Positions 23,960-59,200 of a stretch of 64,000 nt of DNA are shown one piece after another. The position numbers were made by a program, and so were the translations under genes. Position 1 is the first letter of the stretch; each line of letters starts with the position of its first letter. The stretch is from NCBI RefSeq assembly GCF_009914755.1, contig NC_060933.1. The stretch is one strand, 5' to 3'. The notes beneath the pieces are model-generated. The model ran no database searches and was not told the origin of the DNA. It was given only the letters and a program-made list of their open reading frames with translations. The stretch comes from the human T2T-CHM13v2.0 reference genome, Homo sapiens.

Positions 23960-24560
23960 CCCTTGGCCTAAGGGACCCGCTCCGCCCTCAGCCCCCAGCC
24001 CTTGTTGTCATGGAGAGCGGCCTGTGCACCCGAGCCGGCGCCCCTAGCCCTCCCACTGGCTCTCCGCAGGCGGCTTTGTCAGGGCTCAGCGTCCCTGCAG
24101 CTGCCGGGAGAGGAGGAGACAGGGCGGCTGCCTGTGGGTGCCGCGGACCTTCGGGGCGGGCCAGGGAGGCGGGACCGCTCCTCAGAACCCCAGGGGCTTC
24201 AGTCCTGGGCTGATTGGCGCGGGAAGCACAGCCCGGCCCTCCAGGTCCCCAAGGAGACCCCAGCCTCCTGCTGCCCACTGTGAGCGACCTCCCCGGGGCT
24301 CCTCTGGAAGCGGCTCCGGCAAGTATCGAGTTTGCCTGTGCGGAGCTGGGGGAGCCTCCGGCTTTCCTGTTTGCTTTGTTAATTATTTTCGTCCCCAGAG
24401 GAAGGCGGTGAGTAGGTTACATTGGAAAAGGTGGCAATTTTCGCTTGTTTCAGGTGGCTTTGAGATCCTGTGTGGGCTCATTTTTCTGGGTGTCTGCGGC
24501 TGAGCAGGGCTTCTCCAGGGGGCGGGCTGGTGAGACCCTTCTGCAGAAGGAGGAGGTGAC
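23960..24560 (+). promoter_or_regulatory. FGD3: CpG-island-type promoter of FGD3 exon 1a
   Basis: Local CpG enrichment; GC boxes GGGGCGGGCC (24153-24162) and GGGAGGCGGGA (24164-24174); inverted CCAAT box CTGATTGGC (24210-24218). Confidence 0.8.
24200..24407 (+). other. FGD3: FGD3 distal first exon 1a (non-coding; start approximate)
   Basis: Lies in the CpG-rich island; strong donor GCG|GTGAGT at 24407/24408; contains no ATG. Confidence 0.75.
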
Positions 24561-40358: not shown

Positions 40359-40789
40359 TAAGCCCTTCAGGACCTGGTGTTATTATTTATTGATTCTCTC
40401 CCTAAAACAATGAGGGTGCCCTCCTGGTGGGGCTGCTCAGCGGGGCAGGTGCTGGGCCTGCTGGAGCAGCCCTCGTGGGTCAGGTCTCCCAGGAAGCATC
40501 TTGAAATATCTGTTTGCAGGGGGCCTCTTCACCTTCTAACTTGTGGCCATTTCATTGTTCCCAACCAAGAGGGTCTGAGGAAGCCTCTGATGGTGTGTTT
40601 CTGGGCTCACTCTGGGCTTGTCTGGTCTAGGGCCGGCCCCCTCATTCCCTGCTGGGCCCCTCCTCCCTGAAGATCTACACAGCAGATCTACTCACAAAAG
40701 TCCACCCAGCAGAAGCAGGAGGATGGTGGTTGTGGGTCCTCTGTGAGCAGCCCTGTTAACCTTTAAACCAGCACGGCCGCCGCAGCTGT

Positions 40790-41036
40790 GAGCCTAGCAC
40801 CTGATCAGTGGAGAGCTGTGGATTGCATGTTTGTTTGCCATTGCCCCCGCCACCCTGCAAGTTGCACCTTCTAGAATCAGCAAGCCAAGCTCCTCTCACC
40901 CAGCGTAATGATGCGGAAATGCAAATGCACCATCATGTTGTGACCCATATTGCGAAAATTAGAAAAAAGGAAGTTGTGTTTCGCTATTGCACGAAGTTCA
41001 GCCCAGAGGAGAAACTCGCTCGCCTTCAGAAGACAG
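40790..41036 (+). other. FGD3: FGD3 alternative first exon 1b (start approximate)
   Basis: Consensus donor ACAG|GTGAGT at 41036/41037 in unique, CpG-retaining sequence next to a cluster of promoter motifs. Confidence 0.7.
40905..40995 (+). promoter_or_regulatory. Haematopoietic-type motif cluster (ETS, octamer, C/EBP-like, PU.1-like)
   Basis: GCGGAAAT overlapping ATGCAAAT (40919-40926), ATTGCGAAA (~40949), AAAAAAGGAAGT (~40963), ATTGCACGA (~40986). Confidence 0.55.
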
Positions 41037-50835: not shown

Positions 50836-51907
50836 TCCCCCGAGATGGGGTTGAACCAGGCTCTGTCTTGCCAGACAGCTACCTTTGAACACACCGAGGC
50901 TGAGCACAGCTCACATTCCATCTGGTGTATTTTTATTGCTCTGCCATGTTTGACCTCTGGAAACCTGAGTTTATCTCTTGTGCTATGAGAAGAATGCAGC
51001 AAAACATGTATTTTCTGTTTAGAAATCTTAATATTGCCCCCCATTGAACTCGTTAGGAATGCGGCAGTAGCCAATCATAAATGCCCACCTGAGCGATTCT
51101 GGAGTCATTTAAAGAAACGTCCACTCAAAAGGGGTTTTGCCCCAAGACAGTGAGCACTCAGGAGACTGTGTGTGGTGGGGGTGCTCCACCATAGAGCTGG
51201 TCGGCATCCACAGCCACCAGGACGCTGCCAGAGCCCAGGCCTGCGCCACGCCCTGCCCAGAGGCACACCTGCCTGCTCAAGGCAACCAGGGCAGGCTCAA
51301 GGCAGCCAGGGCCAGCTCACTGTGTGCCTGTCACTGTGTGAAGCCTGCTTCTTCTTTATTTCGCTTAGCAAGTGAGGCAGGAGCATGTAAAGCTGCTGGC
51401 AGAGGAATATCTAATTGTGAGTGTGAGTGCGTGTGTGACTGTGAGTGTGAGCCAGCCCGTCAGTGTGAATGTTTGAGAGAGCCTCTCTGTATGTGCCTGG
51501 GGGAGGGTGTGAGGTGTGGGCTAGGGAGGGGCCTGGCGATGCCCACCGGCTCACCTCACACTGGACAGTGCCTGCATGTTCAAGATGACCCTTCCCCTGG
51601 GCCGCAGGATGCTGCATGGCAAGGGACAAGCTCAGCCCTGGCCCCAGAGTTTCCAGCCGAGCAAGACACTGCTCACCCTACAGTGCATGGCTGCTGGTGC
51701 AGGCCCCACCCTTTTGGAGGCATTGTGTGCCAGCCTGGGGGCTGAGGATATGACTGTGCAGATGGCCATGCCCCAATCCTGGAGTCCACCATGCTGGGTG
51801 GTGGCATGGAGCTTCCCTCCTCCGCACCCCCGCAGAGCCGGGGCCTCTGGCTGCTCCAAATGCCAGTTGGAGAAGGTGGTTTTCTTTCTCTACTAATGTC
51901 TTTTCAG

Positions 51908-52075
51908 TACCTCCTAAATGGCTCTACTTTGAACCTGCTGGGCAAGGAAGAGATTTTCAAGGAAACCATCTACCGTGTGCAAGCTCCTGCCGGCCAACCC
52001 CAGACCCCAGCACGGAGCCAGGCGCCTGTGCCCGCCAACCCTCAGCATCCTCCTCAGAAAGGCTGGTGGCATCAG
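51908..52075 (+). other. FGD3: FGD3 exon 2 (168 nt, 5'UTR)
   Basis: Branch point TACTAAT (51891-51897), acceptor gtcttttcag|TAC, donor CAG|gtatgg; unique sequence 800 nt upstream of the coding exon. Confidence 0.85.
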
Positions 52076-52926
52076 GTATGGGGATAAGTGACCGCCACTT
52101 GCAGCCCCTAGGCTCCTCGGCAGCTGCGTCTTGGGTTCAAGAGGATGATTTTGAGGGATGACAGTCTCCCTCTAGGCCCGTCTCACCTTTGCTCCTCCTC
52201 AGAGGCGCCCGGTGAATTTTCTGTGCACTTATAATTGACACTTGAATTTGGTCCATGAGAGGCGTGGTGGGCCAGTGTGAGGTGGCTCCAGTGCACAGGA
52301 GGGAGGAGGAGTTTTGGGGCAAAGACCTTGGTCCACATCCTCTGGCAAGACGCACCTCCTGCCCCAGCCCTCCCCTGAGGGAGATAGTAGAGACAGCTGG
52401 GACCCTGGACCCCTGGGGGCTGTTTTCTGACCTGTCCAGCAGGCAGTGGTGAGGAGGAGGAGGAGGAGGACACCGGCCTCATGTCCTGGGAGTATCAGAG
52501 GATTGAAAAAGCACCACGGATGCGCTATAAACAGAAGCCACTGTGTTCCTTTTGGTTATGGTCACTACCTTGAGCATCTATTTTGAATTTATTGAACAGC
52601 AGATAGCTTCACACCACAGGGTTAATTTTTTTTATGCGGAACAAACAATTTTAAAACAAAACATTTTCCATTTTCTGTTCTTTAAAAGCCTGTCTGTACA
52701 AGACCCAGCTGAAGCTGACCAGGGCATTCACACTTCACACACAACCCCCAGCCCACCTGCTCCAGGCTTTGGGTGGGGGGCGGAGGGTACTGCCTGGGAG
52801 CTGCATTTGGGGGTTGCACCTGAGGGTGCTGGTCCATGCCTGGCTAGCACTGACTCTGGCTTGTTTCTCCCCTACAGGAAGCCCCTGGCCAGCCTCCACC
52901 TGAGCCCAGTGAGCTCAGCTTTAAGG

Positions 52927-53379
52927 ATGGAGTCAGGCAGGGGGTCCTCAACCCCTCCAGGACCCATTGCTGCCCTAGGGATGCCAGACACTGGGCCTGG
53001 CAGTTCCTCCCTAGGGAAGCTTCAGGCGCTCCCTGTTGGGCCCAGAGCCCACTGTGGGGACCCTGTCAGCCTGGCTGCAGCAGGGGACGGCTCTCCAGAC
53101 ATAGGCCCCACGGGAGAGCTGAGTGGTAGCTTAAAGATCCCCAACCGGGACAGCGGGATCGACAGTCCATCCTCCAGTGTGGCTGGAGAGAACTTTCCCT
53201 GCGAGGAGGGCTTGGAGGCTGGCCCAAGCCCCACTGTACTGGGGGCGCACGCAGAGATGGCCCTGGACAGCCAGGTCCCGAAGGTCACCCCCCAGGAGGA
53301 GGCGGACAGCGACGTGGGTGAGGAACCTGACTCTGAGAACACCCCCCAGAAGGCTGACAAGGATGCCGGCCTGGCCCAG
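52927..53379 (+). CDS. FGD3: FGD3 first coding exon, residues 1-151 (CDS continues beyond the window)
   Basis: Translation MESGRGSSTPPGPIAALGMPDTGPG...KIPNRDSGIDSPSSS...DKDAGLAQ recognised as the FGD3 N-terminus. ATG context aggATGg; phase-0 donor CAG|GTAGGC at 53379/53380. Confidence 0.96.
53149..53166 (+). other. FGD3: DSGIDS phosphodegron (residues 75-80), SCF-beta-TrCP motif
   Basis: gac agc ggg atc gac agt in frame; matches the DSGxxS consensus known in FGD1 and FGD3. Confidence 0.9.

Positions 53380-54458: not shown

Positions 54459-59200
<4,742 letters not shown>

What the first reader, a model, noticed from the sequence alone, without database searches (positions are those of the whole stretch)
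51908..52075. FGD3 'non-coding' exon 2 looks like a frameshifted fossil of the FGD1/FGD4 proline-rich and actin-binding exon
Seen: entered in phase 1, the exon reads (G)TA CCT CCT AAA = VPPKWLYFEP...SSCRPTPDPS. Its 3' end, read in the frame of the FGD3 CDS, gives ...LSILLRKAGGI-R|KPLAS..., a phase-2 junction that is open from 51933 to the ATG. Recalled knowledge: in FGD1 the exon before the DSGIDS exon begins within KPQ-VPPKPSYLQ (an SH3-binding motif), contains PPSRPLPADP and ends near VSSLIEKFER. In FGD4 the equivalent runs from VPPKPLHLQ to VSDLISRFEGGS (F-actin-binding region). FGD3 is described as lacking this N-terminal domain. Inference: the exon is the remnant of that domain. A phase 1 to phase 2 coding exon needs length 3n+1, but this one is 168 (3n), so one net frameshift would have turned it into 5'UTR while its splice sites were kept.
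Basis: partly seen in the sequence, partly recalled or inferred. Interest (0 to 1): 0.85.

Follow-up and report, generated by a model that had tools for sequence, protein, structure and literature searches.

The report
Fossil coding exon in FGD3 leader
The second, non-coding exon of human FGD3 is the decayed remnant of a protein-coding exon that still encodes part of a longer FGD3 protein in marsupials, birds, reptiles, amphibians and fishes, and that is shared with the sister genes FGD1 and FGD4.

Summary
Exon 51908-52075 (168 nt) reads PPKWLYFEP... when entered in phase 1. In the CDS frame it is stop-free from 51933 to the ATG at 52927. FGD1 (178 nt) and FGD4 (184 nt) have an exon with the same phase-1 acceptor inside the Val codon of VPPK and the same phase-2 donor in an AG|N codon. 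The stronger evidence is orthology. In 82 of 129 retrieved FGD3 proteins, from sharks to marsupials, this exon is coding, and the human start Met is an internal Met. A tree places these proteins with human FGD3, not FGD1. A frameshift-aware alignment of the human leader to glider FGD3 scores 78, against -20 +/- 14 for shuffles (0 of 150 reach it). The PLPADP-like motif sits in the CDS frame, not in the phase-1 frame. No remnant of the upstream coding exon was found. Whether the frameshift caused the loss, and how far it is shared among placentals, could not be tested. This is an ordinary kind of event, a coding exon turned into UTR, in a new and well-documented case.

The parts
51908..52075 (+). 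FGD3 exon 2: a constitutive 5'UTR exon (168 nt) and a fossil of an ancestral coding exon.
   Evidence: It is present in 5 of 5 RefSeq mRNAs. Splice sites are shown. It aligns to the coding exon of non-placental FGD3.
51908..51960 (+). The 5' part, which keeps the ancestral frame when entered in phase 1: (V)PPKWLYFEPAGQGRDFQ. It matches VPPKPVHFKPLGQERDLQ of marsupial FGD3.
   Evidence: (glider residues 77-108 against window 51907-52008, 51% identity).
51954..51966 (+). The zone where the reading frame switches by one missing nucleotide. The best switch point is after 51960.
   Evidence: The switch-point scan gives scores of 90-95 for 16-18 phase-1 codons. The frameshift-aware alignments place it at 51955 (opossum) and 51964 (glider).
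51961..52075 (+). The 3' part, which carries the ancestral sequence in the present CDS frame. LLPANPRP corresponds to PLPADPRP, and LSILLRKAGGI plus the split Arg corresponds to SSLIEKFESI plus R/W.
52878..52926 (+). The untranslated start of exon 3. It is in frame and has the same length (16 codons between the split Arg and the Met) as the coding sequence IRQP...LK/R-ME of other vertebrates.
   Evidence: (alligator residues 126-254 against 52864-53178, E = 2e-8).
52927..52929 (+). The human start codon. It corresponds to a conserved internal Met (residue 154 of the 910-aa opossum protein) and to the start of the short isoforms annotated in other vertebrates.
51918..51932 (+). A four-codon upstream ORF (ATG...TGA) in the CDS frame. 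Its stop is the last in-frame stop before the ATG.
40919..41036 (+). The start of a 103-codon upstream ORF in the two transcripts that use first exon 40690/40976-41036. It runs through all of exon 2 in the phase-1 frame and stops at 52901-52903.

Best explanation
Exon 2 of human FGD3 descends from a protein-coding exon of the ancestral vertebrate FGD3 gene. In marsupials, birds, crocodilians, turtles, squamates, amphibians, gar and sharks, the orthologous exon still encodes 57-64 residues (VPPKP..., IPPAPSRPLPADP..., SLIEKFES-I-R). These residues belong to an N-terminal extension of about 150 residues that precedes the methionine used as start codon in human. FGD1 and FGD4 carry the paralogous exon with the same intron phases, so the module predates the split of the three genes. 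On the lineage to human, only the short form survived. The exon now has one nucleotide too few (168 instead of 3n+1), and the frame switches near 51954-51966. About five codons are deleted, and key residues have changed (for example K-P to K-W in the VPPKP motif). No upstream coding exon or start codon can be recognised. Translation starts at the conserved internal Met at 52927. Because both splice sites stayed intact, the fossil is still spliced into every annotated mRNA, where it is 5'UTR. Shown here: the homology, the phases, the coding status elsewhere, and the orthology. Inferred: a single net frameshift, loss in the placental stem, and neutral retention.
For: Exon 2 is present in 5 of 5 transcripts. 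The phase-1 acceptor in the Val codon and the phase-2 donor in an AG|N codon are identical in FGD1 (178 nt) and FGD4 (184 nt). The FGD3 junction at the Arg codon is supported by alternative isoforms that diverge exactly there (P0117 against P0124; P0026, P0051 and P0084). Of the 129 retrieved proteins, 82 carry VPPKP at least 150 residues before the NRDSGI motif, and 70 distinct segments align well from shark to opossum. Orthology is supported by a tree in which human and mouse FGD3 nest with echidna and marsupials inside an 18-row FGD3 clade (support 100/100) that excludes human FGD1, FGD4 and FGD2. In the significance test, the leader (exon 2 plus 52878-52926) scored 78 against glider FGD3. 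Shuffles gave -19.7 +/- 14.4 (maximum 20, 0 of 150 reaching) and random window segments gave -44 +/- 17 (0 of 150 reaching). The opossum comparison was similar. For exon 2 alone the z-score falls with distance: 6.1, 5.3, 4.3, 3.1 and 3.3. The two-frame reading scores 95, against 34 and 6 for either single frame. Identity is 29 of 73 aligned residues to glider and 21 of 71 to chicken, while glider and chicken share 46 of 73. This fits relaxed constraint on the human side. A profile of the FGD3 extension hits the FGD1 exon at E = 6e-15 and the FGD4 exon at E = 4.3e-5. A shark FGD3 N-terminus finds the FGD1 exon genome-wide at E = 8.4e-9. Published passages state that FGD3 lacks the N-terminal domain of FGD1 (PMC7446538).
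Against: Taken frame by frame and unspliced, the human pieces are not significant against the profile. The phase-1 ORF scores E = 1.5 and the CDS-frame ORF E = 29, among 13,663 ORF pieces. Genome-wide six-frame searches with either human peptide find only themselves, although the true coding exon does no better. The alignment to chicken needed three frame shifts rather than one, and the shift position varies with the comparator from 51931 to 51966. No remnant of the upstream coding exon was found in the window. There was no row at E <= 100 in any first exon, and only one weak, inconsistent signal (first exon 40690-41036 against turtle z = 2.8, against glider z = 0.7). The non-placental proteins are mostly automatic gene models. 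I had no DNA from any other vertebrate, so synteny, exon lengths and the indel itself could not be read in other species. Absence of the long form in placentals rests on the human annotation, on short or partial entries, and on a search that found 0 placental FGD3 among 56 hits but also missed sauropsid FGD3 entries known to carry the segment.
Confidence: 0.9

Rival explanations
1. The match is a chance resemblance. Exon 2 is proline-rich, low-complexity UTR sequence that happens to look like the proline-rich exons of FGD1 and FGD4.
For: Proline-rich translations elsewhere in the window match the same queries as well or better in plain tblastn. One example is the (CCCTC)n repeat at 55330-55471, with E down to 1.9e-4. 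Per-frame profile E-values for exon 2 are 1.5 and 29.
Against: Both exon boundaries fall in the same codons and phases as in FGD1 and FGD4. Zero of 150 shuffles and zero of 150 genomic segments reach the real score. Similarity rises with relatedness and is highest to marsupial FGD3. The matches include non-proline stretches such as F.P.GQ.RD.Q. No masked repeat overlaps the exon.
Confidence: 0.02
2. The exon is still partly coding in human. Initiation at a non-AUG codon in the stop-free 64-codon leader (51933 to 52926, spliced) would give an N-terminally extended FGD3. Alternatively, the 103-codon upstream ORF of the transcripts that use first exon 40690-41036 would yield a peptide.
For: The leader is open in the CDS frame from 51933. 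It contains in-frame CTG codons at 51987, 52026, 52885 and 52900 and GTG codons at 51975 and 52909. The 103-codon ORF starts with ATG. A 2024 study reports 192 translated upstream regions in human, most of them N-terminal extensions (PMC11317171; I saw only the start of the abstract in the search listing).
Against: An open frame of this length arises in 863 of 5000 shuffles of the same bases, so it is no sign of constraint. The sequence has diverged much more than marsupial from chicken. I examined no ribosome-profiling or peptide data.
Confidence: 0.07
3. The exon is a fossil in origin but is kept because it now serves translation control. Candidate elements are the four-codon upstream ORF present in all transcripts, the long upstream ORF in some, and any structure in the leader. 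On this view its retention is not neutral.
For: The exon is included in 5 of 5 annotated transcripts from three promoters. An ATG-initiated mini-ORF sits in it.
Against: No test of constraint was possible without other mammalian sequences. Intact splice sites alone can keep an exon. Nothing measured here points to regulation.
Confidence: 0.2

Closest known systems
Coding exon of the long FGD3 isoform in non-placental vertebrates (for example opossum P0079 residues 76-137, glider P0085, chicken P0043, Xenopus P0099, white shark P0128)
   Same: It has the same position, directly before the exon with the conserved Met and the DSGIDS motif. It starts at the Val of VPPK and ends in the split codon after ...KFES-I. 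Twenty-nine of 73 aligned residues are identical to glider once one frame switch is allowed.
   Different: It is coding and strongly conserved there (glider and chicken share 46 of 73 residues). The human copy has one nucleotide too few, has lost about five codons, and has lost the K-P of VPPKP and most of the LIEKFE motif.
FGD1 exon at chrX:53761438-53761615 (-), 178 nt, in the proline-rich N-terminal domain
   Same: It has a phase-1 acceptor in the Val codon of VPPKP and a phase-2 donor in an Arg codon (AG|A), followed by the exon with DSGIDS. The profile of the FGD3 extension matches it end to end at E = 6e-15.
   Different: It is coding in human. It is two codons shorter before the split Arg (KFE-R against KFES-I-R). 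Its direct similarity to human exon 2 is weak (z = 3.1). That this segment binds the SH3 domains of cortactin and mAbp1 is known to me only from a review passage (PMC3865658), a table entry (PMC9101201) and recall of Hou et al. 2003.
FGD4 (frabin) exon at chr12:32452524-32452707 (+), 184 nt
   Same: It has the same acceptor (G|TG CCT CCA AAG) and a phase-2 donor (GGC AG|gt). The profile match is E = 4.3e-5 over the whole exon. BLASTP against the FGD1 exon gives 34% identity, E = 0.012.
   Different: It is the most diverged of the three. It holds an in-frame ATG in mid-exon. From recall, not from any call, the common 766-aa frabin starts there, so only the 3' half would lie in the F-actin-binding region of that isoform. 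I could not check FGD4 isoforms, because chr12 transcripts are not in the annotation file.
General class: lineage-specific N-terminal truncation in which a former coding exon persists as a 5'UTR exon
   Same: An intact gene has a start codon moved to a conserved internal Met, and the upstream coding exon is kept in the mRNA only through its splice sites. This is established knowledge of gene-structure evolution and is not tied to a call.
   Different: In this case the relic keeps both ancestral splice phases, is constitutive, and can be aligned codon by codon to living orthologs and to two human paralogs.

Membership tests
Homologous N-terminal exon of FGD1, FGD3 and FGD4 (VPPKP ... LIEKFE module) | The acceptor lies in phase 1, splitting the Val codon of VPPK after its first base. 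| tested here: met
   FGD3 has cag|TA CCT CCT AAA. FGD1 has cag|TG CCC CCA AAG. FGD4 has cag|TG CCT CCA AAG.
Homologous N-terminal exon of FGD1, FGD3 and FGD4 (VPPKP ... LIEKFE module) | The donor lies in phase 2, in an AG|N codon shortly after the ...FE motif. | tested here: met
   FGD3 has ATC AG|gt. FGD1 has GAA AG|gt. FGD4 has GGC AG|gt. FGD3 isoforms diverge at this Arg.
Homologous N-terminal exon of FGD1, FGD3 and FGD4 (VPPKP ... LIEKFE module) | The exon lies directly upstream of the exon that carries the conserved Met and/or the DSGIDS motif. | tested here: met
   This holds for FGD3 and FGD1. In FGD4 no DSG motif was found in the 40 kb examined.
Homologous N-terminal exon of FGD1, FGD3 and FGD4 (VPPKP ... 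LIEKFE module) | Sequence similarity is above chance. | tested here: met
   Zero of 150 shuffles reach the real score for each of five comparators, with z from 6.1 down to 3.1. The per-frame profile E-values are not significant on their own.
Homologous N-terminal exon of FGD1, FGD3 and FGD4 (VPPKP ... LIEKFE module) | The exon has length 3n+1 and one open frame running from the upstream coding exon into the CDS, meaning it is a functional coding member. | tested here: not met
   The exon is 168 nt. The phase-1 frame ends at the TGA at 52901-52903, and the CDS frame has stops at 51915 and 51930. No upstream coding exon was found. It is therefore a relic, not a working member.
SH3-binding proline motif of the kind bound by cortactin (consensus quoted as xPPxPxKPx in PMC3434810, passage) | The P-x-K-P core is intact and has its upstream prolines. 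| tested here: not met
   Human reads VPPKW instead of VPPKP. The KPQ that precedes the motif in FGD1 and FGD3 orthologs is absent from the three human first exons. Binding itself was not tested.
Translated 5' leader (upstream ORF or non-AUG N-terminal extension) | There is evidence of ribosome initiation or of peptides from the leader. | not testable with these tools
   Only the sequence prerequisites were listed.

The most novel reading that the evidence does not exclude
The fossil may not be inert. The leader kept an uninterrupted frame of 64 codons into the start codon. That frame still spells recognisable remains of the ancestral module: LPANPRP and a degraded LIEKFE helix. If some ribosomes start at one of its in-frame CTG or GTG codons, human cells would make a minor, longer FGD3. 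More broadly, the work suggests that FGD1, FGD3 and FGD4 share an ancient N-terminal targeting module. Reviews describe the N-terminus as unique to each gene. Placental FGD3 lost the module together with a burst of sequence change, which could explain why FGD3 and FGD1 act differently on cell shape.
Probability: 0.1. Interest if true: 0.65.

Novelty: new member of a known kind. Interest (0 to 1): 0.55.

Why it matters
Passages in PMC7446538, PMC3865658 and PMC3349753 describe FGD3 as the family member that lacks the N-terminal domain. [quoted passage not shown]

The data here change that picture in three ways:
- The lack of the domain is not a property of FGD3 as such, because long forms carrying it are annotated from sharks to marsupials.
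- A segment of about 60 residues, encoded by one exon with conserved phases, is common to FGD1, FGD4 and ancestral FGD3.
- The human gene still carries the remains of that exon in its leader.

This gives a concrete natural experiment. The long (opossum or chicken) and short (human-like) FGD3 forms can be compared for cortactin or actin targeting and for effects on cell shape. The case also warns that conserved 5'UTR exons can be former coding exons. This matters when interpreting variants, upstream ORFs and conservation scores in the FGD3 leader.

Tried and rejected
Genome-wide six-frame searches of the human reference were run with the phase-1 peptide, with the CDS-frame peptide and with the FGD1 exon peptide. 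They found only the queries themselves. The true first coding exon of FGD3 did no better. I therefore treated these blanks as uninformative and compared the paralog loci directly.

Plain tblastn of 14 ortholog N-termini against the window was swamped by proline-rich low-complexity hits, above all the (CCCTC)n repeat at 55330-55471. I replaced it with profile searches and shuffle-controlled global alignments.

I looked for a relic of the upstream coding exon (...QIKCHIDS...KPQ). A profile of 66 distinct segments gave no row at E <= 100 in any of the three first exons, among 133 rows. Frameshift-aware alignment of the 3' ends of the three first exons gave z between -0.3 and 1.0. The exception was exon 40690-41036 against turtle (z = 2.8, 1 of 100 shuffles reaching), which was not reproduced with glider (z = 0.7). 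I rejected it as unproven.

A weak caecilian match just upstream of exon 2 (51793-51849, E = 0.3) was taken as chance.

FGD2 showed no counterpart of the exon. The best piece in its 24.5 kb scored E = 2.7.

The openness of the leader was considered as a sign of constraint and rejected, because 863 of 5000 shuffles are also open.

The AlphaFold2 model of opossum FGD3 (40-row alignment) was poor, with mean pLDDT 48.8 and pTM 0.31. It shows residues 1-334 as unstructured except for a helix at 126-136 (ISSLIEKFESI) with pLDDT only around 50. I use it only as a hint that the module is a set of linear motifs.

Pfam has no family for the extension, with nothing matching in residues 1-345.

In five literature searches I found no paper that describes exon 2 as a relic or describes the long non-placental FGD3. 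Supplements are closed, and two of them might bear on these claims: Table S2 of PMC5499878 and the tables of PMC11317171.

What I saw of each paper:
- Passages only: PMC7446538, PMC3865658, PMC5499878, PMC3434810, PMC3349753, PMC2133087 (nothing relevant) and PMC9101201.
- Search listing only: PMC11317171.
- Reference-list entries or recall only: Hayakawa 2008, Hou 2003, Obaishi 1998 and Pasteris 2000.
Full report
What is there. The window holds the 5' part of FGD3. All five RefSeq mRNAs splice one of three first exons (24201-24407, 40690/40976-41036, 51139-51416) to exon 2 (51908-52075) and then to exon 3 (52878-53379). The CDS starts in exon 3 at 52927. Exon 2 is 168 nt, with acceptor ttttcag|TACCTCCTAAA and donor CATCAG|gtatgg. 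The frame starting at 51910 is open across the exon and reads PPKWLYFEPAGQGRDFQGNHLPCASSCRPTPDPS.... The frame starting at 51909 is the CDS frame. It has stops at 51915 and 51930 and then runs ...LLPANPRPQHG...PPTLSILLRKAGGI to the exon end. Across the junction, AG|G gives Arg, followed by KPLASLHLSPVSSALR and the ATG, with no stop.

Paralogs. I fetched the FGD1 locus and part of the FGD4 locus from the same genome. The FGD1 exon before the DSGIDS exon is chrX:53761438-53761615 (-). It is 178 nt, starts cag|TG CCC CCA AAG, and ends GAA AG|gtgagt. It encodes VPPKPSYLQ...PPSRPLPADP...VSSLIEKFE plus a split Arg. The FGD4 counterpart is chr12:32452524-32452707 (+). It is 184 nt, starts cag|TG CCT CCA AAG, and ends GGC AG|gtaaga. 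It encodes VPPKPLHLQ...VSDLISRFEGG. Both lengths are 3n+1. Both acceptors split the Val codon after its first base, and both donors split an AG|N codon after its second base, exactly as in FGD3 exon 2. The two paralog peptides share 34% identity over their full length (E = 0.012 for the single comparison).

Orthologs. This is the decisive evidence. Protein searches returned FGD3 entries from non-placental vertebrates that are about 880-930 aa long, against 725 aa in human. Examples are opossum 910, sugar glider 911, chicken 909, alligator 908, a turtle 898, anole 913, garter snake 882, a caecilian 915, Xenopus 901, a newt 932, gar 900 and white shark 901. Of the 129 proteins held at that stage, 82 carry VPPKP at least 150 residues before the NRDSGI motif. 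The 70 distinct versions of this segment align well. The shared pattern is VPPKPVHL..GQE...IPPAPSRPLPADPK...(I/V)(S/N).LIEKFES-IRQP....QRNQ.NL..K-ME.G.DSS. The human start Met is the Met of K-ME in this pattern, which is residue 154 of the opossum protein. At least 16 of the 119 entries P0011-P0129 start at that same Met. These include opossum P0068 and echidna P0065, so a short, human-like isoform is annotated widely. Isoforms with alternative first exons join at (R)QP (P0026, P0051, P0084). Two gar isoforms diverge after ...EKFENSR. This places the FGD3 exon junction in the same Arg codon as the human AG|G.

Are these proteins really FGD3? A maximum-likelihood tree was built from the region after the N-terminus. 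It had 21 rows: 17 selected database proteins, human FGD3 from the annotation, and concatenated tblastn pieces for human FGD1, FGD2 and FGD4. Human and mouse FGD3 fall with echidna and the marsupials inside an 18-row FGD3 clade with 100/100 support. Human FGD1 is sister to this clade (95/88), and FGD4 and FGD2 lie outside. The clade follows the species tree. Entries labelled 'faciogenital dysplasia' (gar, sawfish) or 'FGD1' (a sea turtle) fall inside it. The stem leading to human and mouse is long: 0.46 changes per column, against 0.10 for the marsupial stem.

Is the human exon homologous to the coding exon? Plain searches are weak. A profile of the extension gives E = 1.5 for the phase-1 ORF of exon 2 (rank 9) and E = 29 for the CDS-frame ORF, among 13,663 ORF pieces from 288 kb. 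The same profile gives E = 6e-15 for the FGD1 exon and E = 4.3e-5 for the FGD4 exon. Because the hypothesis names one exon in advance, I tested it directly. I ran a global protein-to-DNA alignment that allows frame shifts. The spliced leader (exon 2 plus 52878-52926) scores 78 against the 78-residue glider segment. Dinucleotide shuffles give -19.7 +/- 14.4 (maximum 20, 0 of 150 reaching). Random window segments of the same length give -44.2 +/- 17.3 (maximum 15, 0 of 150 reaching). The opossum comparison gives 71, with shuffle and genomic maxima of 5 and 3. Exon 2 alone gives z = 6.1 (glider), 5.3 (chicken), 4.3 (white shark), 3.1 (human FGD1) and 3.3 (human FGD4), each with 0 of 150 shuffles reaching. 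Similarity therefore falls with evolutionary distance, as homology predicts, and it is highest to the orthologs, not the paralogs.

Where the frame breaks. Against the marsupials, the alignment needs a single shift equivalent to one missing nucleotide, at 51955 (opossum) or 51964 (glider). A scan of all possible switch points peaks after 18 phase-1 codons, with the last base at 51960. The score there is 95, and 90 at 16-17 codons. The phase-1 frame alone scores 34, the CDS frame alone scores 6, and switches after codon 29 or later score 62-71. The exon therefore reads in the old frame up to ...GQGRDFQ, which matches marsupial ...GQERDLQ. From there on it reads in the present CDS frame: KLLPANPRP matches RPLPADPRP, LSILLRKAGGI-R matches SSLIEKFESI-R/W, and the 16 following codons in exon 3 align without gaps to IRQP...LK before the Met. 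With one switch, 29 of 73 aligned residues are identical to glider, 28 of 73 to opossum, 21 of 71 to chicken, 23 of 72 to Xenopus and 21 of 72 to shark. Glider and chicken share 46 of 73. The human copy also lacks about five codons present in marsupials. Two caveats apply. The chicken alignment preferred three shifts, and more distant comparators place the shift as early as 51931. Without DNA from other species, the indel itself cannot be seen.

What was lost and when. No trace of the exon that encodes ...QIKCHIDS...QKPQ in other vertebrates was found in the window. The phase-1 frame ends at TGA 52901-52903. In the two transcripts that use first exon 40690-41036, this frame forms a 103-codon upstream ORF starting at the ATG at 40919. 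Placental entries retrieved start at or next to the human Met. They come from four rodents, three bats, a meerkat and an elephant shrew. However, that search could only return proteins of 193-614 aa. A search with the opossum extension (length window 500-1592 aa) returned 56 hits at E <= 1. They were 6 marsupial FGD3 clusters, a newt, 9 shark or ray FGD3 entries and 40 other entries, nearly all labelled FGD1, four of them placental. No placental FGD3 was returned. The search also missed sauropsid FGD3 entries known to carry the segment, so it is not exhaustive. The simplest reading is that the long isoform was lost after the marsupial-placental split and before the placental radiation. This is an inference. 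Whether the frameshift, the loss of the upstream exon or a promoter change came first is unknown.

How the ancestral module may work. This part rests on inference and literature. The segment is predicted to be unstructured except for a short helix over ISSLIEKFESI. The model is poor, with mean pLDDT 48.8, and Pfam has no family for the segment. [quoted passage not shown] The cortactin SH3 consensus is quoted as xPPxPxKPx (PMC3434810). Frabin's N-terminus binds F-actin (PMC3865658). The shared exon therefore probably carries linear targeting motifs. In human FGD3 the motif reads VPPKW and the preceding KPQ is gone, so no such function is expected from the relic.

Comparison with what is in print. 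[quoted passage not shown] A survey of RhoGEF repertoires states that amphibians lack FGD3 (PMC5499878). Current databases hold FGD3 entries from many frogs, salamanders and caecilians, and these fall in the FGD3 clade. In five searches I found no paper that describes the long non-placental FGD3, the shared exon or the relic in the human leader.

Verdict. The kind of event is ordinary: a coding exon demoted to 5'UTR when the N-terminus was truncated. The case is unusually clear. It revises the textbook description of FGD3 and of the FGD N-termini, and it offers simple experiments.

Noticed in passing
window 40919-41036, then 51908-52075 and 52878-52903 (spliced): Transcripts that use first exon 40690/40976-41036 carry an ATG-initiated upstream ORF of 103 codons. 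It reads the whole of exon 2 in the old phase-1 frame and stops 24 nt before the FGD3 start codon.
   Followed up: partly
window 51918-51932: A four-codon upstream ORF (M-A-L-L-stop) lies inside exon 2, in the CDS frame, and is present in all five transcripts.
   Followed up: partly
window 55330-55471: A (CCCTC)n-like simple repeat in intron 3 translates to proline-rich strings. In plain tblastn it gave better E-values against the proline-rich queries than the true relic did.
   Followed up: yes
L041:7524-7707 (chr12:32452524-32452707), ATG at L041:7616-7618: The FGD4 counterpart exon has an in-frame ATG in mid-exon (MEEIKP...). FGD4 may therefore also make forms with and without the VPPKP half of the exon. 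Isoforms could not be checked here.
   Followed up: no
tree (human FGD3 CDS from window 52927 onward plus loci L023-L027): The branch leading to human and mouse FGD3 is long (0.46, against 0.10 for the marsupial stem), even in the conserved DH-PH-FYVE-PH part. This suggests faster change in placental FGD3 at about the time the N-terminus was lost.
   Followed up: partly
proteins P0081, P0116, P0122, P0124: Database names are inconsistent. A sea-turtle entry is labelled FGD1, and gar and shark entries are labelled 'faciogenital dysplasia'. The three of them that were included in the tree (P0081, P0116, P0124) group with FGD3. The published statement that amphibians lack FGD3 (PMC5499878) is contradicted by many current amphibian entries.
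   Followed up: partly
window 51793-51849: A weak match lies in the intron just upstream of exon 2, in the same frame: caecilian FGD3 residues 16-34, 53% identity over 19 residues, E = 0.3. It is most likely chance.
   Followed up: no
opossum P0079 residues 126-136 (model m391e321bb4b3): The only secondary-structure element predicted in the first 334 residues of long FGD3 is a helix over the ISSLIEKFESI motif, which is shared with FGD1 and FGD4. Confidence is low.
   Followed up: partly
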